Assembly: GCA_030537655.1 (NCBI GenBank)
Contig: JAUNVN010000001.1
Coordinates: forward strand, 1 to 35,984
Origin: Bowdeniella nasicola
GTDB taxonomy: Bacteria > Actinomycetota > Actinomycetes > Actinomycetales > Actinomycetaceae
Reading direction: 5' to 3'
DNA length: 35,984 nucleotides
How positions within the stretch are numbered: the stretch's first letter is position 1; each line of letters begins with the position of its first letter. The notes under the pieces were generated by a model, which ran no database searches, was not told where the DNA came from, and saw only the letters and a program-made list of their open reading frames with translations. Below are positions 6,194 to 25,770 of the stretch, one piece after another. Made by a program: the position numbers and the translations under genes.

Positions 6194-6988
6194 ATGACCG
6201 CGCCGCAAAACCCCGATTCGTCCCCCGTGCCCGCCCCGGCTCGCTCACCGTTGGTGATCGTCTTGCTGGTGCTCCTTGGGATGTTACTGGTAGGAGTGGG
6301 CTTTTTTATCGGCCGTCTTGCCTCCACTGGCTCTCAGACGGCCACTCCCACCCCAGCTGTGACCACCTCGAATGATCCGGGCGCTGACAGCGGTCACGAG
6401 GGCCCTGCACCGGAGACGAGTCTCGATCCGGAAATTCTCGAGCTGGTTCGCGCCCAGGTGAAACGAGATCCGGATGATCCCTTCGCGCGCGGCGAGGTGG
6501 ATGCGCCGGTGGTAATGGTGGAGTATTCCGACTTTTCCTGCCCCTTTTGCGCCCAGTTCGCCACCCAGACAATGCCCGAGCTAGAACCCTATATTGCCGA
6601 GGGTACCCTGCGGGTTGAGTGGCGGGACTTGGCGCTCTTCCCGGAGGGGCAACACAGCGCCGCCGCCGCGCACGCCGCGGCCCAACAGGGAAAATTTTGG
6701 GAGTTTCACGATCTTATTTTCGCTGACCACTCCGGTCAGGGACATCCCAGCTATGACGTTGATGCATACGTTGAATTTGCGCGTCAGGCTGGCGTGAGCG
6801 ACCTGGAGGCCTTTCGCGCCGATGTGCAAGACGACACCTACCTTGACGATGTGCGAGCCGCGACCGATACGACCATGATGTCCTTAGGGCTGCGCGGCAC
6901 CCCCGCATTCATTATCAACGACCAGGTCATCTCAGGGGCCCAACCACTGGAAGTCTTCATCGATGCAATCGAAAGTCAAAAACCCTAA
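6194..6988 (+). CDS. Membrane-anchored DsbA-family thiol-disulfide oxidoreductase
   Basis: AGGAG RBS before ATG 6194. N-terminal TM helix, EYSDFSCPFC active site, KFWEFHD, GTPAF cis-Pro loop and GAQP. Confidence 0.88.
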   Translation: MTAPQNPDSSPVPAPARSPLVIVLLVLLGMLLVGVGFFIGRLASTGSQTATPTPAVTTSNDPGADSGHEGPAPETSLDPEILELVRAQVKRDPDDPFARGEVDAPVVMVEYSDFSCPFCAQFATQTMPELEPYIAEGTLRVEWRDLALFPEGQHSAAAAHAAAQQGKFWEFHDLIFADHSGQGHPSYDVDAYVEFARQAGVSDLEAFRADVQDDTYLDDVRAATDTTMMSLGLRGTPAFIINDQVISGAQPLEVFIDAIESQKP

Positions 6989-7464
6989 CCGGTGACATAC
7001 CTAGCCACCATCGGCACGGCAAGGATGAGATAGAAACGCAACCAGCGGCCGGCAAATGAGGCGGTGGCAAATTCCCACCAACGCTGGCCCACACTCGGGG
7101 CAACCAGCGGCATGAGCGCATAGGGCGGTAGGGAAATAGCCGCGGCGGAAAAACTGATCACCCACCCGGTTGGGCCACGGAGATATGTCACCAGCGGGGA
7201 ATTATTCCACCGCCGTGCCCGCGCGCGCGTTGCGGCGCTCACTCGGGCGGTAAGCCAGGCGTGTAACCGCCGATTTGTGATCAATCCGGCCGCCAGCGCG
7301 TAGTGCCCACCTTTGCCGAGTGTATGGGTGGCCGCGCAGATCGCAGCCAGTGCCCACGCGGGAACCTCCGCCAGGCCGCCACCGGCCAGCAGTACGACTT
7401 CGATAGGAAGGAACACCACGAGCGCAGCAAGCAGGGAGGTGACGGCCAGCGTTGCGGTAATCAC
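6985..7464 (-). CDS. Small membrane protein, possibly DedA/VTT (YqaA-like)
   Basis: Hydrophobic throughout, with FLPIE, TLGK, SLPP and FATASFAGRWLRF segments reminiscent of VTT proteins. GTGA start/stop overlap with modBC. Confidence 0.6.
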   Translation of the reverse strand: MITATLAVTSLLAALVVFLPIEVVLLAGGGLAEVPAWALAAICAATHTLGKGGHYALAAGLITNRRLHAWLTARVSAATRARARRWNNSPLVTYLRGPTGWVISFSAAAISLPPYALMPLVAPSVGQRWWEFATASFAGRWLRFYLILAVPMVARYVTG

Positions 7465-9428
7465 GGGCGGGCAACCACGCTCACCTCAGCGGCTTTGATC
7501 ACCGCATGCATCCACACACCAATATCGATCCCGAGTTTTTGGACCGATCCGACGGTGAGATCCGCAGACATGAAAATGTCGGTGTCGCGGATACGAAGTG
7601 AGACGCGAACGAGTTGACCGGCTTGTTCAACTCCCATCACCCGTACCGCAAAGACATTTCGAGGTGAGCCCTGTGGGGTTTGGTCTTGGGGGTAGAGCGA
7701 CACGGCTGCGGGCGCGAAGAGTGCAACCGCACCGGTACCGTCCGCCAGTGGTTCTGCCGCCACTCCCACCAGCTCTGCTGCACCGCACCGAATTGCAACC
7801 AGCTCATCGGCGGTGATGTCACTGACCTGACCAACCGCCATATTCATCCCGGCAAGCGCTGCGGCGAAGGGGGTACGTGGGCGAGAAAGAACCTCGTGGG
7901 TTTCCCCCTCTTCAACCACTTTGCCCTCATCGAGAACCACCACGCGGGTGGCCAGGCGTGCCACATCCAAGAGATTATGGGTGACAATCACCGCGGTAGT
8001 TGCCCCGTTGGCAAACCGCGCCGCGAGGACGCGGCGCATATGAGCGGCGGCATCAACATCGAGGGCGGCCATGGGTTCATCGAGGAAGACCACGTGCGGA
8101 TTGGTGGCCAGCGCACGTGCGAGGGCAACGCGCGCTGCCTGTCCTCCCGACAGTTGCGCTGGTCGGCGATCAGCAAGGTGGGCGGCACCAACCGCGGCGA
8201 GTTCATCGTCCGCGCGGGCCCGTGCCTGCGCTTTTGCCATCCCGCGAGAACGTAACCCAAAGGCCACATTGTCACGTGCTGACAGATGCGGGAAGAGCAG
8301 TGGTTTTTGGGCGAGTAAGGCAATATTGCGTGCGTGTGGCGCAAGATTTGTCTCCTCACCTTGCAGCTGACGCCCACCGACGGTGACCTGCGAGCCGGGT
8401 GCGTTGAGCAGCCCGGTCATAATTTGCACACTGGTGGACTTACCGGAGCCATTTGGACCAAGCAGTGCCACCACTTCACCCGCGGGGATCTGCAGGTCAA
8501 CATCGAGGTGACGTTCGGCTAATGTCAGGTTGGCGGTAATCGCTTCGGCCGGTGGTTTTCCACCTGGTAGCACGGGGCGGTCCGGCGCGGGAGTGGGGGT
8601 GCGTTCATCGGATTCACACGGTTCAATGCGCCGGGGTGGGCGCGCTCCCTGATACTGCCAGGCGGTGACGGCCACCACCATGATGGCAACCACGATGAGC
8701 ACGGCCGCCAGTGCGAGCGCGATCTGCGGATCGGTTTCCCGCCGGAGGTAAATTTCCAACGGCATCGTGCGGGTGACACCTGACAGGGAACCCGCAAAGG
8801 TGAGGGTCGCTCCGAATTCACCGAGGGAGCGTGCCAGTGCCAGGGCGGTGCCCTGGGCGATCGCCGGCCAGACGAGCGGGAGAGTAACCCGGGTGAAAAT
8901 CCGGGTGGGCCGCGCCCCTAACGTGGCGGCGATGGCTTCATAACCGGCTTCACGTACCCGCAGTGCCCCCTGGAGTGCGACGATCAGAAATGGCATCGAC
9001 ACGAAGGTTTGCGCCATGATCACCGCGGTGGTGGTGAATCCAACCTCAATACCAATGTGACTGAGCCATGTCCCAACCAGGCCACGTCTTCCAAAGGTTT
9101 GCAAGAGGGCAAGACCGGCAACCACTGGCGGTAGTGCCATCGGCAGGAGCACGATGACGCGCGCAATTTTCACGCCGCGCCAAGTGCCCGCCAGCAACGT
9201 TGCGGTCGGAATTCCCAACAGGACCGCTAAGGCGGTGGAAATGAGGCAGGTTTTGAGTGACAGCCACAGGGCGGCTCGCGCATCTTCTTGGCTCATCAGC
9301 TGCGGGATTTCAGCGAAGGGCACGCGTGTGCCCAACCCGATCAGCGGAATAAGCAGCGCGAGCAGCCCCGCGACAGCCAGCAGGTAAATCCAGGCCGGGA
9401 GTCGGCCACGATACGTTGTCGTATCCAT
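7461..9428 (-). CDS. modBC: Fused molybdate ABC permease + ATPase + TOBE domains
   Basis: ModB motifs LPMALPPVVAG and ARSLGEFGATLTFAG. ATPase motifs GPNGSGKST, LSGGQ and LDEPMAALD. TOBE signature SPRNVF...IKA. Directly follows modA. Confidence 0.9.
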   Translation of the reverse strand: MDTTTYRGRLPAWIYLLAVAGLLALLIPLIGLGTRVPFAEIPQLMSQEDARAALWLSLKTCLISTALAVLLGIPTATLLAGTWRGVKIARVIVLLPMALPPVVAGLALLQTFGRRGLVGTWLSHIGIEVGFTTTAVIMAQTFVSMPFLIVALQGALRVREAGYEAIAATLGARPTRIFTRVTLPLVWPAIAQGTALALARSLGEFGATLTFAGSLSGVTRTMPLEIYLRRETDPQIALALAAVLIVVAIMVVAVTAWQYQGARPPRRIEPCESDERTPTPAPDRPVLPGGKPPAEAITANLTLAERHLDVDLQIPAGEVVALLGPNGSGKSTSVQIMTGLLNAPGSQVTVGGRQLQGEETNLAPHARNIALLAQKPLLFPHLSARDNVAFGLRSRGMAKAQARARADDELAAVGAAHLADRRPAQLSGGQAARVALARALATNPHVVFLDEPMAALDVDAAAHMRRVLAARFANGATTAVIVTHNLLDVARLATRVVVLDEGKVVEEGETHEVLSRPRTPFAAALAGMNMAVGQVSDITADELVAIRCGAAELVGVAAEPLADGTGAVALFAPAAVSLYPQDQTPQGSPRNVFAVRVMGVEQAGQLVRVSLRIRDTDIFMSADLTVGSVQKLGIDIGVWMHAVIKAAEVSVVARP

Positions 9429-17835: not shown

Positions 17836-18087
17836 GTGAGCTGGCAGTCATTTTCCCGTGCGCTGCGCGAGTTTTACTTCGCCCCCTACCGGCGAACCCT
17901 AGCTCGCGCAGCGCGGGAGGAAGACGATTTTTTCTTGCTCATCCTGCTTGGTGAAGCCCTGGGGGTCCCCAACCCGCTCGCCTACGAAACCCTCGAATTG
18001 TGGCCGCATCTACGTGCCGACCTGCACGCGTGGCACACGCGGATGGGAATGGAACGCTCCCCCTTTGACCACATTGGGTGTTGCTGA
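17836..18087 (+). CDS. Small CstA-associated protein ending in Cys-Cys-stop (cory-CC-star-like)
   Basis: 83 aa: EFYFAPYRR, EEDDFFLLILLGEALGVPNP, WHTRMG and terminal GCC*. Starts 6 nt after cstA; its TGA overlaps the next ATG. Confidence 0.8.
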   Translation: MSWQSFSRALREFYFAPYRRTLARAAREEDDFFLLILLGEALGVPNPLAYETLELWPHLRADLHAWHTRMGMERSPFDHIGCC

Positions 18088-19088: not shown

Positions 19089-21599
19089 ATGATTGACATT
19101 ACCGACGAATTCGCCACCGCATTGGATCTAGCTGCCCGCGGCGAGCACCTGGTCATCCTGGGTGATCCGCACACCGGAAAATCCACGTTTATCGAGCACC
19201 TCGCCAAGGTGACGCGCAAGAATGTGTTGGTGACGGCGCCAACCCCGCTTTCTGCCAACCGGCGCGGTTACTACTGCCTGACGCAGTTTTTTGATTTTTC
19301 CGCGCCCACCACACAGCCCAATACGGCCGCATTCGCCGATATTTTGCCGCACCTGGACATGTTGATTATCGGTTGGGCCAACCTTTTGCGTGCCGATCAG
19401 CTCGATCTCATCGCCGCGCGGCTGCGCGAGGTGGGAAAAGATCCCGACGCCCCTTTCGGTGGGGTGCAAATCGTCCTCGTCGCGGACTTGCACGCCCCAC
19501 CCCCGGCGGTCGAATCCGATGAGGCCGATACCTTCCATGCGCGCTATCAGCAGCCGTATTTCACCGCGGCCGAAGTCTTTGGCGCCGCCGACTTTCACGC
19601 CGTGGGCCTCACCCGTGTGTTTGCGCGCAACGATTCCTCAACGCGCGTAAAGCTGCGCCGCGCGCTTGCGACGGGCCATTACACCCACCATGTGCTCGCA
19701 CACCTCAACCGCAAGATGGAGAGAAATATCGATTGTCCGCGCAGCTACAAAGCCGCTTCGGTGTGGGCGACACCCAAGCGCGCGCAACAATTCCGCGAGC
19801 GCATCTTGGCCTCGTGTGAAGAGCGCGTGCAGACTTCTGCAGCGCATGGCCGTGGTGATACGGATCCGTTTTGTTCTCCCATCCCCGATCCGCTCCTCTT
19901 TGCGGCGGGTGTCTCAGTGATGATCGTGCATTCCAATCGGAAAGGTTTCCCGTATTCGGGATTTGTTTGCCAGATCGATCACAGCTCGCACACAACGGAT
20001 GAAACCGGCAGGCAAGCACACGTCGTGGCGATCGCATTTGATCGACTCTCGAATCAGCCGTTGCACCCGGCGGCCTTGAATGTGACCCGCCCGCGTGTTG
20101 GTGAGCGCGGGATTGAACACGAGAAGATTGGCCACTACGTGCAATTACCCTTCGTGCTTTCTGAAGGGTTGAGCCTGCAGGATGCGACGGAACTGTTTGA
20201 CGTGTCGACTGTGTTCGATTTTTCTGGTGCCCCGCGCTATCCCGGACAGCTCACCGGTGCCCTCACCAACCGCCTCACTTGGCGCTACGATAGTGCGTTC
20301 ACCGAGCCAATCACGTGGGAGCAGGCACGTGCTGAAGGTGAATTGAGTGCGCTCACCCACACGTTACTCACCGGTGAGGCGCAGCGGCTGTGCGCGATCG
20401 AATGCCTCACCGCACCAACGCCGAGCGGGGCGATCCCCGTGGAGATTGCGCTCGCCTTTCCCGACGGCACCCGCATCTCCACTCTCATCGCGCCATCTGC
20501 CGACCAGCTGGATGGCGCGCCAGCTGTGGGAATATCGACCGAGCGGATGCAGCTGGCACCCACGCTCACCCAGGCGTGGGCGATGGTGATGCAAGAAGCG
20601 TCCGGTTACGCACTGATCAGCTCCGATGTGGCAGCAGTGCACTGTGCGATGCGCGATCTGGATCCCGCTTTGTGCCCGACGACGATTGCCGAGGTAGCGG
20701 TTGCAACAGATGTGCACGCGGTGGCCGCTGATCGCGCCGCAGCGAGTTTAAATGCGGCGGAACACCGTGAAATCGCAACCGAGATTTTTCGCGTTGACGG
20801 TGGGCATCACTGCGGCTATACGCTCAATCGTGACGGCGAGATCATGGTGTACGGCCTAGCAAAAGACGTCTCACAACTCCTCACCGAGCGTCTCGGCGAT
20901 GAGCGTCCCAACGACGAGAGTGACCTGTCGCTGCTCGCCTTTGAAGAAACCTACGACGTGCGCGTCACCCGTCAGCTACCCGTCGCTTTCCCTCCAATTG
21001 CCGAGGTGTTACGTCCCGGGACGCACGTGTGCTTTTTCCAACCGAAATTTCAGTTTTCCAAATCCTCCTTTTCTTCAACCCTGCAGGCAATGGCCACTTC
21101 TCACTATTTGTGGCCGATTGTCGGGGACCCTGATGCGCTCAGCGAGATCCTCATCGCCGATGGCGCCTCCCGTGGATGGCGCGAAGCGAAAGCGCGCTGC
21201 AACTGGGATAAACCAGTCTATGACGAGCGTGAATTCGTGCAGTGGGTGGAACAACAGGAGCAGAACTCCCGCACTGAGACACCTGGCGATGAGGAACAGG
21301 CACGTCCGGCCCGTGACGAGCTTGCCAAACGCCGATACCTCGCGGCGCGCCCAGCAATTGCCGATGTATTGGTCAGGGGCACCGATGTGACGGTGGAGAG
21401 ATCACCGCGCTTCGATGAAATTTATAACCGCGCTCGTGAGCGTGGGTTCAGGGTCACCGCCTCCGCGCTGCGTCTTAAAACCCGCGCCGTCATTGCCGAT
21501 TACCAATCCTCAGAATTATGCGTCATCCGTGCACGCAGAGAGGGGATTCCGATTTATTCCGCCAGCGAATTTTTCGCCTGGTATGAGTCGACCCAGTAA
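19089..21599 (+). CDS. Catalytically degenerate paralogue of the downstream Pif1-like helicase (helicase fold + DnaQ-like + 2 BRCT-like)
   Basis: Colinear with 22275-24995 (MIDITDEFA/MIEITDEFA, APFGGVQ, TRPRVGE, APTLTQAW). Walker B DE is replaced by GW and motifs III-VI are eroded. ORF is intact for 836 aa. Confidence 0.82.
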   Translation: MIDITDEFATALDLAARGEHLVILGDPHTGKSTFIEHLAKVTRKNVLVTAPTPLSANRRGYYCLTQFFDFSAPTTQPNTAAFADILPHLDMLIIGWANLLRADQLDLIAARLREVGKDPDAPFGGVQIVLVADLHAPPPAVESDEADTFHARYQQPYFTAAEVFGAADFHAVGLTRVFARNDSSTRVKLRRALATGHYTHHVLAHLNRKMERNIDCPRSYKAASVWATPKRAQQFRERILASCEERVQTSAAHGRGDTDPFCSPIPDPLLFAAGVSVMIVHSNRKGFPYSGFVCQIDHSSHTTDETGRQAHVVAIAFDRLSNQPLHPAALNVTRPRVGERGIEHEKIGHYVQLPFVLSEGLSLQDATELFDVSTVFDFSGAPRYPGQLTGALTNRLTWRYDSAFTEPITWEQARAEGELSALTHTLLTGEAQRLCAIECLTAPTPSGAIPVEIALAFPDGTRISTLIAPSADQLDGAPAVGISTERMQLAPTLTQAWAMVMQEASGYALISSDVAAVHCAMRDLDPALCPTTIAEVAVATDVHAVAADRAAASLNAAEHREIATEIFRVDGGHHCGYTLNRDGEIMVYGLAKDVSQLLTERLGDERPNDESDLSLLAFEETYDVRVTRQLPVAFPPIAEVLRPGTHVCFFQPKFQFSKSSFSSTLQAMATSHYLWPIVGDPDALSEILIADGASRGWREAKARCNWDKPVYDEREFVQWVEQQEQNSRTETPGDEEQARPARDELAKRRYLAARPAIADVLVRGTDVTVERSPRFDEIYNRARERGFRVTASALRLKTRAVIADYQSSELCVIRARREGIPIYSASEFFAWYESTQ

Positions 21600-21674
21600 G
21601 TGCGGGGACGGCTCCCGCACACGCGTGTCGATCGCCATTTGCGTGGCCGGTGACCCGCGCGAAAGGCGATCGAC
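21600..21674 (+). terminator. Two tandem hairpins right after the degenerate helicase stop, probable terminator
   Basis: GTGCGGG/CCCGCAC (21600-21620), then a ~19-bp stem GTCGATCGCC-a-TTTGCGTGG...CCGCGCGAA-a-GGCGATCGAC (21627-21674), followed by TCCCTTT. Confidence 0.55.
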
Positions 21675-22274
21675 TCCCTTTCCGAACATCAGGTGCGAGG
21701 AGTAATGCGGGAAGCTGACAGCGGCTGCTGGCCGATCGGGAATCACTTTTGTTAACCTGCGAAAAACTGCGCCGGAATCGCCCCTATTTTTTGCACAGAT
21801 CCCAAAAACTGAACGTGGTGCGCCCCTAGACCGCTGCCCTGACGGCACGCTGCGATTTTTCATCAGACCCATACCTTTTTGCCATAGCCCGGAATGACGG
21901 CGCGTTTGACTCGGGTGGTGGTGGGCGCTTTCAATGACCGTTTCAGCGAGGGTTTGCGCATTCCAAACCTCATAGTCTCGCGCCTCAATCAGCGGTCTTC
22001 ATGCTGCACGAACGCGAGGTGCCGGGTAAGGGAGGAATGTGTGGATGCGCGCTGGCAGTGATCAACAGATTGCTGACAGTTGACGCGCGTGCGATGCGGT
22101 CAGCAGATAGTGGCCAGGTGGCAAAGAGTGCAGCCGCAACGCGTCAGATACGATCACCATCGTGCACAGACCGCCATCATTTGGCGCGGGTGACAAAACG
22201 TCTAATGTGCACGCAGCTCACCGCTATCCACAGTGGTACAGATTCACGAAAATATGGGTTAATCTGAGCGAATA

Positions 22275-24995
22275 ATGATTGAGATTACCGACGAGTTCGC
22301 CGCCGCGTTGCACCGCTTGCACACCGGCGAGAACCTGTTGCTCACCGGGCGGGCCGGTACCGGGAAAACCACGCTCATCCAACATTTTTTGGCCTCCACC
22401 ACGAAACGGGTGGTGCTGGCCGCACCCACCGGGGTCGCGGCGCTGAACCTGGGTGGCTACACCCTGCACCGGCTGTTTTCCTTTCCCACCACCATCACTC
22501 CCGAGGCGGTGCGAACCGGCAAGGTGACAGCCGGGCGGTATGCGAAGCTGCTTTCCCAGCTCGATACGCTCGTGATTGACGAAATCTCGATGGTGCGCGC
22601 CGACCTGTTTGATGCGGTTGTGGCGGCGCTGGAGGCCTACGGCCCGAAGCCCGGCGCGCCCTTTGGTGGGGTGCAGCTGGTACTGGTTGGTGATCTCTAC
22701 CAGCTCCCCCCGGTAGTGCAGCGACGTGAGGCCGAGTATTTTTCCAGCCACTACTCAACGCCCTATTTTTTCTCCGCCAAAAGCTACCGCTCATCGGCGT
22801 TTTCCTGTCTGCACCTGCGCCGCGTGTTTCGTCAGCAAAACGATGCGAAACTTGCAGCGATGCTCGATGCACTGCGTGCCGGGCGGATCACCGAGACCAT
22901 TGCGACCCAGCTGAACGCCCAGGTGGATGCTGATTTTACACCGCCACCAGAAGAGGTGTGGGTGACGTTAGCGACCACGAACCGCGCAGCCAAGCGCCGC
23001 AACGACGCCGAATTGGCGCGCCTGGCCAGTGATCTTCACGAGTTTCACGCGCAAATTTCAGGCGAGTTGGACGGCTTTCGCCCACCTACCGATGCGCAGC
23101 TCAAATTGAAAATCGGCGCGCAGGTGATGCTGGTGAATAACGATGCTGCCGGGCGCTGGGTAAACGGCAGCCTCGCGGTGGTGCTCGCGATTGAAGCTGA
23201 GGACGAGACGAAACCCGCCGTGCTGCTGGAGCTGCTCGATGGCACCGTTGTGCGCGTGAAGGCGCACGAATGGAAGATCACCAGGCCGCGGATCGGCGAG
23301 CAGGGCTTGGTGCACGAGACGATTGGTACCTTCACCCAGCTGCCGATCAAGCTCGCCTGGGCGATCACAATCCACAAGGCGCAGGGTCTGACCTTGCCGC
23401 GCGTGATTGTTGATTTGCGTGGTGGCGTACATTTTCCGGGCCAACTCTACGTTGCGCTCTCGCGCTGTACCTCGCTTGCCGGACTGGTGCTCACCCGCGC
23501 GGTGAAACCACGCGATGTGCGCGTTGATTCGCGGGTGCGCGAGTTTGTTGCCACCGATGCTTTCGGTGGCGATGCGCAGCAGTATTGCGCCTTGGAAGCG
23601 CTGTTTGTTGGTGAGGGAGACAAGCATCCGCGTGCGATCGAATTGGCACTCGCCCTACCGGAGGGCACGATCGTTGAAAGTGTCATCAACCCGCAGCGCG
23701 ACCTTGATCTGGCGCCGGTGCGCTATGGCATTGACGCGCAGTTGGCGCAAATCGCGCCGACGCTTGCCCAAGCCTGGCCAGCATTCGCAGCCGAAATGGA
23801 GCACCTGGGGATCGCTTCGCTGCTCGGGCGCAGACTGGTGGACCTGCTCAACAACGAACTCACACGGCTGGGGACTTTCGCGCCGTTAGAAGAGATAGGG
23901 CAGCTCCGAGGGCCGATCACACCGATTGACGCTCCGGTCAGCGCGCTCAATCCGAGCGGTGCGCGCAGTGCCACCGATGCGGCCGCGCACACGCTCTCGC
24001 TGCTTAGTGATCACGGCATCGTCGTGCCGGCCGCTGCCTTCGAGCTGTTCGAGGAGATCAAACCGGGGTTTTTGTGTACGCGCACAGGTGAGATTATCCC
24101 GTTTGGCTCACCCCAGGAGGTCACCACCATGCTCGCTGCCAACCTTGCCGGTGCGCAGGTGAGTGAAGAAAGTGAAGTGGCGTTGCGTGCATTTGAGCGT
24201 CGCTACCACGTCACGGTACCGCGGCCGACACCTCAAAGCGCCCCACCGATTCGTCACGTGTTACAGCCCGGGACGCGGGTGTGTTTCACGGGCACCCTGG
24301 TTGATCACGAGCGGGAGTGGCAACGCGGGGAACTGGTGGATTTAGCTGCGGACTGCGGCTTAAAACCGGTGCGAAAGGTCACGAAAACCCGCTGCGATGT
24401 GCTGTTTTGTGCCGATCTTGCTTCCCAGTCGGGAAAGATGCGCCAAGCGCGCAGCTGGCAGATCCCGATCTATCCAATCAGCGAGTTTGTGCACTGGGCC
24501 ACGCACCGCGCTGGTTCTTCGGTACACTTCCTGCCGAGACCACCCGAGTCTGGCGCCGGACCGTCAGCTGATGAAAATCCGCATCTGATCGGGCAGGTTG
24601 AGCGTACGCTACACGATGACCGCGTTCCGCAGTCCGCCGATATCCTCGCGCCCGATCAGTCGCCTATTCATCTGGTTCCCCAGGTGATTGACGCGCCCTA
24701 TGCGGGCCGACCCGGCATTACCGATGTGCTCGTGGCTGGAGCGCGCATTTGTTTTACCGGCCGCGCAGTGTTTCACCGGCGCATCTGGCCGCTCGCCGAG
24801 TTGCGCGATATTGCGCGTATCTACGATTTAGCGCCGCTGCGCCAAGTGGTGAAGGTTGGCTGTGACGCGCTCGTTACTGCCGATCCGCTCGCCAATACGC
24901 ACGCCTGTCAGCTGGCGCGGCAATACGATATCCCAATCTTCTCCACGGCGGAGTTTCTCATCTGGGCTGGATGGTCGAGCGAAGAACCAACCTAG
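22275..24995 (+). CDS. Pif1/RecD-like SF1B DNA helicase fused to a degenerate DnaQ-like exonuclease domain and two BRCT domains
   Basis: Helicase motifs GRAGTGKT, APTGVAA, TLHRLF, VIDEISMV, GDLYQLPPV, FRQ, WAITIHKAQG and GQLYVALSR. BRCT signatures RVCFTG...SGKMRQARSWQIPI...EF..W and RICFTG...ARQYDIPIFSTAEF..W. Confidence 0.9.
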   Translation: MIEITDEFAAALHRLHTGENLLLTGRAGTGKTTLIQHFLASTTKRVVLAAPTGVAALNLGGYTLHRLFSFPTTITPEAVRTGKVTAGRYAKLLSQLDTLVIDEISMVRADLFDAVVAALEAYGPKPGAPFGGVQLVLVGDLYQLPPVVQRREAEYFSSHYSTPYFFSAKSYRSSAFSCLHLRRVFRQQNDAKLAAMLDALRAGRITETIATQLNAQVDADFTPPPEEVWVTLATTNRAAKRRNDAELARLASDLHEFHAQISGELDGFRPPTDAQLKLKIGAQVMLVNNDAAGRWVNGSLAVVLAIEAEDETKPAVLLELLDGTVVRVKAHEWKITRPRIGEQGLVHETIGTFTQLPIKLAWAITIHKAQGLTLPRVIVDLRGGVHFPGQLYVALSRCTSLAGLVLTRAVKPRDVRVDSRVREFVATDAFGGDAQQYCALEALFVGEGDKHPRAIELALALPEGTIVESVINPQRDLDLAPVRYGIDAQLAQIAPTLAQAWPAFAAEMEHLGIASLLGRRLVDLLNNELTRLGTFAPLEEIGQLRGPITPIDAPVSALNPSGARSATDAAAHTLSLLSDHGIVVPAAAFELFEEIKPGFLCTRTGEIIPFGSPQEVTTMLAANLAGAQVSEESEVALRAFERRYHVTVPRPTPQSAPPIRHVLQPGTRVCFTGTLVDHEREWQRGELVDLAADCGLKPVRKVTKTRCDVLFCADLASQSGKMRQARSWQIPIYPISEFVHWATHRAGSSVHFLPRPPESGAGPSADENPHLIGQVERTLHDDRVPQSADILAPDQSPIHLVPQVIDAPYAGRPGITDVLVAGARICFTGRAVFHRRIWPLAELRDIARIYDLAPLRQVVKVGCDALVTADPLANTHACQLARQYDIPIFSTAEFLIWAGWSSEEPT

Positions 24996-25233: not shown

Positions 25234-25770
25234 CTAAAAAAGCGTTGGTGACGCGCTGTCCACATCGGCGCTGACGAGCGTGTCAACTGCCGCCAACGAG
25301 GGCTGGTGGCCGGGATAGCCCGGCCCGGTTTCGACCTCGCTGCCGTTTTGGATTGCCGTTGCGGCAGCATTTGCGCGCCGATCGGCCGCTTCATTCAGGG
25401 CATGTCCCGCATGTCCGCGCACCCAGGTGAACTGCAGCTCACGGCCGGCCATCGCCGTATCAAGGGCCCGCATCAGTTCGGCGTTCGCCACCGGTTTTTT
25501 ATTTGCGCGTTTCCACCCGCGTCGCTTCCACCCCGGCAACCATTCGGTCAGCGAGCGGATCACGTACTGCGAGTCGCACAAAATGTGCAGCCGCTCATCG
25601 GTATGCGCGGTGGCGTGCAGCAGTTGCAAGACGGCCAGTAGCTCACCGACATTATTGGTGGCACGTGCCAGTCCGCCAGCCTGCCAGGTCTCGTCGTTGA
25701 TTACCCATGCCCATCCAGCTGGGCCCGGGTTGCCAAGACACGACCCGTCACATGCGGCAGTGATCGTCAT
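25234..25770 (-). CDS. rnhA: Ribonuclease HI
   Basis: Motifs ACDGSCLGNPG, TNNVGEL, DSQYV, WKRRGW and WVRGHAGHALNEAAD. All acidic catalytic residues present. Confidence 0.93.
   Translation of the reverse strand: MTITAACDGSCLGNPGPAGWAWVINDETWQAGGLARATNNVGELLAVLQLLHATAHTDERLHILCDSQYVIRSLTEWLPGWKRRGWKRANKKPVANAELMRALDTAMAGRELQFTWVRGHAGHALNEAADRRANAAATAIQNGSEVETGPGYPGHQPSLAAVDTLVSADVDSASPTLF

What the first reader, a model, noticed from the sequence alone, without database searches (positions are those of the whole stretch)
19089..24995. Tandem active + catalytically dead Pif1-like helicase paralogues: candidate pseudoenzyme-partner DNA-processing system
Seen: two large same-strand ORFs alignable end to end. 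Copy 2 (22275) has all SF1B motifs. Copy 1 (19089) keeps a Walker A-like GDPHTGKS, but the later catalytic motifs are replaced. Walker B IDEIS becomes IGWAN (nt 19371-19376). Motif III GDLYQLPP becomes ADLHAPPP and motif IV FRQ becomes FAR. Motif V AITIHKAQG becomes GLSLQDATE, and motif VI GQLYVALSR becomes GQLTGALTN, losing the Arg finger. Non-catalytic segments survive (RAD, APFGGVQ, PYF, TRPR.GE.G..HE.IG...QLP). The 2.5-kb frame has no stop or frameshift despite heavy divergence. Established: helicase folds without motor activity serve as partners in RecBCD (RecC) and AddAB (AddB). Inference: copy 1 is a selected pseudo-helicase that heterodimerises with, loads or regulates copy 2 in repair, R-loop/G4 processing or defence. 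I do not recall such a pair being described for bacterial Pif1.
Basis: partly seen in the sequence, partly recalled or inferred. Interest (0 to 1): 0.85.

Follow-up and report, generated by a model that had tools for sequence, protein, structure and literature searches.

The report
Dead Pif1 helicase copy, kept intact
Beside an intact Pif1 DNA-unwinding gene, this actinobacterium carries a duplicate that has lost the motifs for burning ATP and gripping DNA yet remains a long open gene in three related lineages, so it is likely a selected pseudo-helicase that would work by binding other proteins, possibly restraining its intact twin.

Summary
Observation confirmed. 19089-21599 (836 aa) and 22275-24995 (906 aa) are 29% identical end to end; both are Pif1 core + exonuclease-like fold + two BRCT-like repeats. 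The first keeps the Walker A lysine and Pif1 signature but has lost motifs II-VI, the ssDNA-binding residues and part of the 1B wedge. It is not a strain quirk: degenerate orthologues exist in two more lineages (40-42% identical, one lacking the last repeat), with 94 shared new residues; neutral drift to that distance predicts about 11 stops per lineage. It evolves at least 6 times faster than the intact copy (86%). Distribution is narrow: no other of 301 family genomes searched has two full copies. A strong hairpin pair follows the dead gene, which sits 30 bases behind the cstA-arsA operon, so the two copies are likely transcribed apart. Verdict: likely a selected Pif1 pseudo-helicase (about 0.85); that it acts on its intact neighbour is untested (about 0.4 overall). 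A second, apparently independent degenerate relative exists (P0172). New variant of a known kind (RecC/AddB, Deinococcus PriA).

The parts
19089..21599 (+). Degenerate Pif1 paralogue (predicted pseudo-helicase), 836 aa
   Evidence: model pLDDT 86.9; orthologues
19089..20372 (+). Pif1-fold core of the degenerate copy (domains 1A, shortened 1B, 2A, 2B)
   Evidence: Foldseek 8bns_A E 7e-29, TM by target 0.79; VIA Z 32.5 to 5fhh, rmsd 4.6, 382 aligned; Atlas's own model TM 0.77-0.80 to PIF1 clusters
19161..19187 (+). Walker A remnant; G25, G30, K31, T33 kept in all three degenerate lineages
19305..19319 (+). Site of a 7-residue deletion in domain 1B (wedge), shared by all three degenerate lineages
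   Evidence: helix 76-80 present in the intact model, absent and pLDDT under 50 in the degenerate model
19371..19376 (+). Walker B DE replaced by GW (ED in the two other lineages)
19482..19505 (+). Motif III with Gln replaced by Ala (Ala in all three lineages)
19617..19628 (+). Motif IV: Arg lost in all three, aromatic kept in two of three
20166..20192 (+). Motif V replaced (TIHK lost in all three)
20226..20336 (+). Motif VI replaced, with new motifs shared by the three degenerate lineages (GAP.YPGQ.T, ITW..ARAE)
20373..20783 (+). DEDDh exonuclease-like fold, predicted inactive in both copies and across the family
   Evidence: VIA Z 10.4 (9ii8, rmsd 2.9, 130 aligned), 10.3 (1w0h, rmsd 2.6, 136), 10.2 (1wlj, rmsd 2.7, 128); no Pfam hit; first acidic motif not intact, residue register inferred
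20985..21272 (+). BRCT-like repeat 1; family TG and K residues lost; the region whose rate is least raised relative to the intact copy
   Evidence: BRCT label from relatives (P0106 PF00533 E 1e-7; NF004719 C-terminal part)
21345..21596 (+). BRCT-like repeat 2; present in P0002/P0137, missing from P0145/P0292
21600..21674 (+). Two tandem hairpins directly after the stop codon (likely terminator)
   Evidence: -52.4 kcal/mol for 21597-21700, z -4.24, 0 of 200 shuffles as stable; inverted repeat I10
21675..22274 (.). Spacer before the intact gene, unique in the genome; likely holds that gene's promoter (none found by the sigma-70 scan)
22275..24995 (+). Intact Pif1-family helicase with exonuclease-like fold and two BRCT-like repeats, 906 aa
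16132..19058 (+). Context: cstA, cory-CC-star gene, ArsA/GET3-like ATPase; ends 30 bases before the degenerate gene
25234..25770 (-). Context: RNase H gene, convergent on the intact helicase

Best explanation
The upstream gene is a motif-degenerate duplicate of a Pif1 helicase that stays a long open frame in three lineages and is likely a selected pseudo-helicase, which would act by protein contact, most likely as a brake or adaptor on the intact copy next door. Shown: same domain layout as the neighbour; loss of motifs II-VI, of the ssDNA-binding residues and of part of the 1B wedge in all three lineages; retention of the P-loop Gly-Lys, the N-terminal tail, the Pif1 signature and structural residues; a predicted intact Pif1 fold. 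Inferred: (1) it cannot hydrolyse ATP productively, translocate or grip ssDNA in the normal channel; (2) it may still bind a nucleotide, as B. subtilis AddB is proposed to; (3) its kept function lies in domain 1A, the remodelled end of 2A and the linker/BRCT1 region; (4) because Pif1 dimers are self-inhibitory in Thermus and Bacteroides, a motor-less sibling would damp the intact enzyme; (5) it is read as the last gene of the cstA-arsA operon, apart from the intact gene, so it would be a conditional rather than an obligate subunit. Odds: selected pseudo-enzyme about 0.85; acting on the intact copy, given that, a little under half.
For: Orthologues: P0002/P0137 40% and P0145/P0292 42% identical to the window's copy, 59% to each other, all 28-32% to intact copies; monophyletic 100/100 with the window's lineage branching first, as for the intact copies and as ArsA identities suggest. 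A profile search of 1.84 billion representatives gives 1534 and 1008 bits for the two degenerate clusters, then 348. Neutral substitution to 39-44% identity gives about 11 stops per lineage; 0 of 800 simulated pairs (four levels of 200) kept both frames open. Of 178 columns at least 95% conserved in 78 intact relatives, 59 are kept in all three degenerate lineages, 77 lost in all, 42 mixed; structural residues kept 46 of 110, polar 13 of 68, p 0.002. 94 residues are invariant in the three lineages and differ from both the neighbour and the family consensus; invariant columns cluster, p 0.0004. Constraint is uneven (chi-square p 0.011); rate ratio to the intact copy 2.3 in BRCT1, 3.7 in the linker, 15-28 in domain 2A. 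Fold. Codon use ordinary, 53rd percentile of 498 long ORFs, a rough reference. Same layout likely in relatives: the three closest ArsA proteins have longest contigs of 78840, 3687 and 58812 bases, equal to those of degenerate P0002 and intact P0018 (78840), degenerate P0145 (3687) and intact P0019 (58812). Dimer self-inhibition: passages of PMC8053095. AddB precedent: passages of PMC3064778.
Against: No expression, biochemical or genetic data exist. It evolves much faster than the intact copy and than ArsA (40%, 86%, 67% to the same lineage), unusual for a tightly fitted subunit whose partner changes slowly. P0145/P0292 lack the second BRCT-like repeat (real loss or assembly effect not known). 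Co-occurrence with an intact copy is shown once (window) and inferred once (equal contig length); no degenerate copy was retrieved for the 58812 lineage and no intact copy for the 3687 lineage. Intact relatives live without such a partner: 31 other of 301 family genomes have a single gene, and 95 of 95 other loci hold one Pif1-like frame (15 had only 1.5-kb flanks, many are distant Pif1s). The hairpins between the genes argue against co-transcription. The Thermus dimer forms on ssDNA and its interface is not conserved across bacteria, whereas this protein appears to have lost ssDNA contacts. Within-species changes avoid conserved columns only weakly (6 of 23, expected 42%, p 0.09). Origin from the neighbour's own stem is not resolved (18 against 22 shared residues; AU p 0.17; open fork). 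P-loop retention is a few residues against a 42% background in domain 1A and is not significant on its own.
Confidence: 0.4

Rival explanations
1. It is a selected pseudo-enzyme whose job no longer involves the intact copy: a decoy or sensor for a foreign (for example phage) protein that attacks the helicase, or a scaffold or nucleotide sensor serving the cstA-arsA operon it is attached to.
For: Fast change with an open frame and new shared motifs fits an arms race or a new role; 10 and 14 amino-acid differences between members of single 90% clusters; fixed position behind arsA, likely separate from the intact gene.
Against: No PADLOC match for either degenerate protein, only partial-domain matches for the intact one; neighbours of 11 intact relatives are varied and mostly metabolic, with 2 clear defence-model hits among 54 ORFs besides ABC and exonuclease cross-matches; the window holds no defence genes among the 25 ORFs scanned; arsA operons exist without it.
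Confidence: 0.33
2. It is a functionless duplicate decaying slowly; it is still translated as the tail of an operon, so selection removes only toxic misfolded or truncated forms.
For: Fastest gene of the three compared; catalytic, DNA-binding and BRCT pocket residues all gone; one lineage lacks the last repeat; very narrow range; structural residues kept more than functional ones is also what anti-misfolding selection gives.
Against: A useless 2.5-kb gene would be expected to be deleted or broken over a distance at which ArsA falls to 67% (deletion bias in bacteria: recalled); 0 of 800 neutral simulations keep both frames; clustered new invariant motifs.
Confidence: 0.2
3. The protein is still an ATPase or helicase using non-canonical residues.
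For: Walker A lysine kept in all three lineages; two lineages have Glu-Asp at the Walker B position.
Against: The window's copy has Gly-Trp there; motif III Gln, motif IV Arg, motif V and the motif VI pattern are lost in all three; 0 of 6 motif patterns in the five degenerate sequences against 6 of 6 in 236 of 285 proteins examined.
Confidence: 0.04
4. Assembly or annotation artefact.
For: The genome is a 76%-complete assembly in 264 contigs.
Against: Orthologues from independent assemblies; DNA similarity between the two copies is too low for a collapse or chimera; a contig of another run matches inside the gene.
Confidence: 0.01

Closest known systems
Bacterial Pif1 helicases (SsPif1 8BNS, DdPif1 8BNV/8BNX, Bacteroides Pif1 5FHD/5FTB, Thermus oshimai Pif1 6S3E)
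   Same: Core fold and Pif1 signature in both copies; all motifs in the intact copy.
   Different: Both copies carry an exonuclease-like fold and two BRCT-like repeats instead of a WYL domain or nothing; the upstream copy lacks motifs II-VI, ssDNA contacts and part of the wedge.
AddB of B. subtilis AddAB and RecC of RecBCD
   Same: Helicase fold without motor motifs encoded beside an active helicase; AddB likewise keeps only Walker A (passages of PMC3064778).
   Different: Those derive from SF1A (UvrD-like) motors, are ancient and widespread, scan DNA for Chi, and sit in a proven stable complex; this one is SF1B, recent, confined to a few lineages, fast-evolving, has apparently lost ssDNA contacts, and no complex is known.
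AdnA of mycobacterial AdnAB
   Same: Actinobacterial partner with a motor-like domain that binds ATP without shown motor activity (passages of PMC13000450).
   Different: AdnA keeps a seemingly intact set of ATPase motifs and an active nuclease; SF1A.
Deinococcus radiodurans PriA pseudohelicase; Utp25
   Same: Helicase descendants with decayed motifs, kept for binding roles (abstract of PMC4504706; first part of PMC9539457).
   Different: SF2; PriA is the sole copy and keeps DNA binding; here an intact paralogue remains next door.

Membership tests
Pif1 helicase (intact copy, 22275-24995) | SF1 motifs I, Ia, II-VI | tested here: met
Pif1 helicase (intact copy, 22275-24995) | Pif1 signature between motifs II and III; Pfam PIF1 above cut-off | tested here: met
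   PFGGVQ end of the signature present (signature as given in PMC3113762); 95.5 bits against 25.9
Pif1 helicase (intact copy, 22275-24995) | 5'-to-3' ATP-dependent unwinding | not testable with these tools
   needs an assay
Pif1 helicase (degenerate copy, 19089-21599) | Pif1 fold (1A, 1B, 2A, SH3-like 2B) | tested here: met
   1B shortened by 7 residues
Pif1 helicase (degenerate copy, 19089-21599) | Pif1 signature | tested here: met
   RAD...PFGGVQ kept
Pif1 helicase (degenerate copy, 19089-21599) | Catalytic motifs II-VI | tested here: not met
   Pfam 16.5 bits, under the cut-off
Pseudo-helicase (pseudoenzyme) | Helicase fold with catalytic residues lost | tested here: met
Pseudo-helicase (pseudoenzyme) | Maintained by selection | tested here: met
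   open frames at 40-42% identity, 0 of 800 neutral simulations; no dN/dS available
Pseudo-helicase (pseudoenzyme) | Expressed, and lacking ATPase/helicase activity by assay | not testable with these tools
   needs transcript, protein and enzyme data
RecC/AddB-type inactive partner subunit | SF1A (UvrD-like) descent with a RecB-family nuclease domain | tested here: not met
   SF1B Pif1 fold with DEDDh-like and BRCT-like domains
RecC/AddB-type inactive partner subunit | Encoded next to the active helicase | tested here: met
   window; inferred for one more lineage from equal contig lengths
RecC/AddB-type inactive partner subunit | Co-transcribed with the active helicase | tested here: inconclusive
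   675-base spacer and strong hairpins argue against; no transcript data
RecC/AddB-type inactive partner subunit | Active subunit generally accompanied by the partner | tested here: not met
   single gene in 31 other of 301 family genomes and 95 of 95 loci
RecC/AddB-type inactive partner subunit | Stable complex with the active subunit | not testable with these tools
   needs co-purification
Classical pseudogene | Stops, frameshifts, strain-restricted | tested here: not met
   one lineage lacks the last repeat
Known anti-phage system (PADLOC 2.0) | Full-length model match and defence neighbourhood | tested here: not met
   library dates from 2023

The most novel reading that the evidence does not exclude
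The first Pif1 (SF1B) pseudo-helicase: a nucleotide-binding, DNA-blind twin that pairs with its intact sibling and switches it off, exploiting Pif1's dimer self-inhibition, wired to the cstA operon so that the brake is applied on a nutritional cue; and motor-dead Pif1 derivatives have arisen at least twice in this actinobacterial Pif1-exonuclease-BRCT family (this clade and P0172).
Probability: 0.2. Interest if true: 0.8.

Novelty: new variant of a known kind. Interest (0 to 1): 0.55.

Why it matters
What bacterial Pif1 helicases do and how they are controlled is open (PMC3113762, PMC9964779). A motor-dead twin kept by selection marks which surfaces of the protein matter apart from unwinding, and offers a natural reagent to test whether dimer self-inhibition, seen so far only in vitro, is used in cells. 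It would also be a recent, datable case of the route by which RecC/AddB-like subunits are thought to arise. The limit is its range: three unnamed lineages of one small clade, known from assemblies only.

Tried and rejected
Complex prediction of the C-terminal halves (intact 428-900 with degenerate 425-836, with alignments): verdict 'no answer', score 0.00, mark 0.32; the helicase cores and full-length proteins were not folded together. DNA of the orthologues: none found in GTDB contigs or JGI metagenomes, so no dN/dS and no direct synteny. Sequencing runs: one DNA run with a small share, no RNA holder listed; laying it gave three 200-base contigs. Sigma-70 promoter scan: 0 found, 3.0 expected; it also did not list the hairpin pair, which lacks a long T run. 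Trees could not place the degenerate clade: long-branch joins, open fork (P0159 and P0172 left out there). Shared-residue count for origin from the neighbour: 18 against 22. Polymorphism test p 0.09. P0172 has no close match in 338 family genomes (best 34%), so its context is unknown. Atlas feature searches gave only sub-threshold hits. Pfam found nothing on the isolated exonuclease-like and BRCT-like stretches. Defence reading: not supported. Mobile-element reading: G+C of both genes matches the window, no long flanking repeats. Literature searches that found no Pif1 pseudo-helicase: (open-access library only; supplements not read). Earlier scan notes: eight listed by sequence, none on this theme; none by place or words.
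Full report
1. Observation. The window has two same-strand ORFs, 19089-21599 (836 aa) and 22275-24995 (906 aa), 675 bases apart. They align over their whole length at 29% identity, E 1e-91. No third copy is in the assembly, which is 76% complete. The closest named relatives of the neighbouring ArsA are labelled Actinomycetaceae bacterium and Bowdeniella nasicola (48-53%), so the organism is likely an Actinomycetaceae near that genus.

2. Anatomy. AlphaFold2 models of both proteins are confident (pLDDT 86.9 and 85.1). The model of the degenerate copy was built on an alignment of mostly intact relatives (84 rows), which biases it towards the family fold; the Atlas's own model of the same sequence also matches PIF1 clusters at TM 0.77-0.80 over residues 1-428. 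Residues 1-428 match Pif1 structures (Foldseek E 7e-29 to 8BNS; Z 32.5 to 5FHH). Residues 430-565 match DEDDh exonuclease folds (Z 10.2-10.4, rmsd 2.6-2.9, 128-136 aligned); the first acidic motif is not intact in either copy or in the family consensus, so this domain is predicted inactive throughout the family (register inferred). Two C-terminal repeats are BRCT-like by way of relatives. The closest single-copy relatives (50%) have one repeat; both copies here have two.

3. What is lost and kept. In all three degenerate lineages the Walker B DE, motif III Gln, motif IV Arg, the TxH of motif Ib, the Asn of the TN motif, TIHK of motif V, YVALSR of motif VI and the TG and Lys of BRCT1 are replaced, and seven residues of domain 1B are deleted. 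That these residues serve hydrolysis, coupling and ssDNA binding is recalled knowledge of SF1B helicases; 1B as wedge, and adenine binding by the N-terminal tail and the motif IV aromatic with phosphates held by motif I, are from PMC9964779 (parts 1-2 of 5 read). Kept in all three: the N-terminal tail, G25, G30, K31, T33, APT of motif Ia, the Pif1 signature, QLP and GQ; the motif IV aromatic in two of three. So nucleotide binding may survive while the motor cannot run. This is a hint only: domain 1A is 42% invariant overall.

4. Is it maintained? A search with the degenerate protein found P0002 (860 aa, 40%), its cluster mate P0137; a profile search of 1.84 billion representatives added P0145 (769 aa) and its mate P0292, then fell from 1008 to 348 bits. 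Of 285 proteins checked, these five are the only ones with 0 of 6 motif patterns; 236 have all six, 30 five, 11 four, 2 three, and P0172 two. The degenerate proteins are one clade (100/100). Simulated neutral substitution to 39-44% identity gives about 11 stops per lineage, and 0 of 800 pairs stayed open, without counting indels. Structural residues are kept more than polar ones (46 of 110 against 13 of 68, p 0.002), and 94 positions are invariant and new, in clusters (p 0.0004). Against this: it is the fastest gene compared. To the lineage with the 78840-base contig, identity is 40% (degenerate), 67% (ArsA), 86% (intact): at least 6-fold by simple distance, about 9-fold under LG+G. P0145/P0292 lack the last repeat, and the polymorphism test is not significant (6 of 23, p 0.09). 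Relative rates differ by domain: 2.3 in BRCT1, 3.7 in the linker, about 7 in 1A and the exonuclease-like fold, 8.5 in 2B, 13 in BRCT2, 15-28 in 2A. Constraint was released from the motor and least from the linker/BRCT1.

5. Distribution and context. Four same-genus genomes (94-100% complete) have no Pif1; in G003 and G004 arsA runs straight into the phosphatase gene, and in G001 the RNase H and phosphatase genes have no helicase beside them. So the helicase genes entered this spot in the window's lineage. In 301 family genomes, 32 have the gene and only the window's genome has two full-length places (at most three candidates per genome were scored); a second query over 338 genomes agrees. 95 of 95 other loci hold one Pif1-like frame (15 with 1.5-kb flanks, many distant Pif1s, some short contigs). 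The three closest ArsA proteins have longest contigs of 78840, 3687 and 58812 bases, the same figures as for degenerate P0002 and intact P0018, degenerate P0145, and intact P0019. I infer four lineages: pair shown in the window, inferred in one, arsA plus degenerate gene in one, arsA plus intact gene in one, where the missing partner may simply not have been retrieved. Whether the degenerate gene arose from the neighbour's own stem is plausible (adjacent, both with two repeats; AU p 0.17) but unresolved. Neighbours of 11 intact actinobacterial relatives (54 of 109 listed ORFs scanned, the nearest ones) are varied, with no conserved partner and few defence hits.

6. Transcription. The degenerate gene starts 30 bases after the stop of the cstA, cory-CC-star, arsA cluster and is followed at once by two hairpins (z -4.24). 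It is likely the last gene of that operon, and the intact gene likely has its own promoter. No expression data bear on this.

7. Mechanism. The evidence makes a selected, catalytically dead protein likely (about 0.85). Having lost DNA-gripping as well as catalytic residues, it most plausibly works through protein contacts. The intact twin is the most economical partner: in Thermus oshimai and Bacteroides, Pif1 dimerisation limits unwinding (passages of PMC8053095), so a motor-less twin under separate control would be a brake. That paper also says the interface is not conserved and that the dimer forms on ssDNA, and the fast evolution fits a decoy or a new partner as well. Hence 0.40 for the brake or adaptor on the twin, 0.33 for an independent role, 0.20 for slow decay, 0.04 for residual activity.

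8. Comparison and novelty. It works like AddB or RecC in outline, and like B. subtilis AddB keeps only Walker A (passages of PMC3064778); it is not a member of those systems (SF1B, no RecB-type nuclease, intact relatives live alone). Other described pseudo-helicases are SF2 (abstract of PMC4504706; part 1 of 4 of PMC9539457); AdnA keeps its motifs (passages of PMC13000450). A review of prokaryotic Pif1 notes multiple copies in some genomes but the word 'inactive' does not occur (passages of PMC3113762). Eight searches of the open-access library (listings only for the other papers; no supplements read) showed no Pif1 pseudo-helicase. P0172 is a further degenerate member lacking this clade's new motifs and deletion, so likely an independent case; in the LG+G tree it joins the clade only by a flagged long-branch join.

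9. Verdict. Real, maintained, narrow. New variant of a known kind; interest 0.55.

Noticed in passing
protein P0172 (771 aa; no locus available): Another member of the Pif1-exonuclease-BRCT family with Walker B Glu to Gln and motifs IV, V and VI lost, but BRCT residues kept; lacks the new motifs of the window's degenerate clade, so likely an independent dead copy. No close match in 338 family genomes.
   Followed up: partly
window:22275-24995 and relatives P0003-P0136: A widespread, patchy actinobacterial Pif1 subfamily with a C-terminal exonuclease-like fold that Pfam does not see and one or two BRCT-like repeats; some members add an N-terminal RNase_T exonuclease and an Lsr2 DNA-binding domain. 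Not found described in the searches made.
   Followed up: partly
window:16132-19058: cstA, cory-CC-star gene (NF041419) and ArsA/GET3-like ATPase cluster; the ATPase likely starts at 18087.
   Followed up: partly
window:17860-17914: 24-base inverted repeat (79%) forming a hairpin inside the cory-CC-star gene (I2).
   Followed up: no
window:25234-25770 and L024:1525-3099: The RNase H gene beside the phosphatase gene has a 74% match in G001 only; G003 and G004 have just 34-36% matches elsewhere and G002 none.
   Followed up: partly
proteins P0145/P0292: Both end shortly after the start of the second BRCT-like repeat; real truncation or assembly effect unknown.
   Followed up: no
G060:C3, G104:C7, G291:C1: The single Pif1-type gene matches in two pieces, possibly frameshifted or split.
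   Followed up: no
L035:4813-5613 and 6560-8770: A DEDDh exonuclease-BRCT gene lies just upstream of the Pif1-exonuclease-BRCT gene on the same strand.
   Followed up: no
window:31672-32616: 314-aa ORF without Pfam match, conserved at 58% in G004.
   Followed up: no
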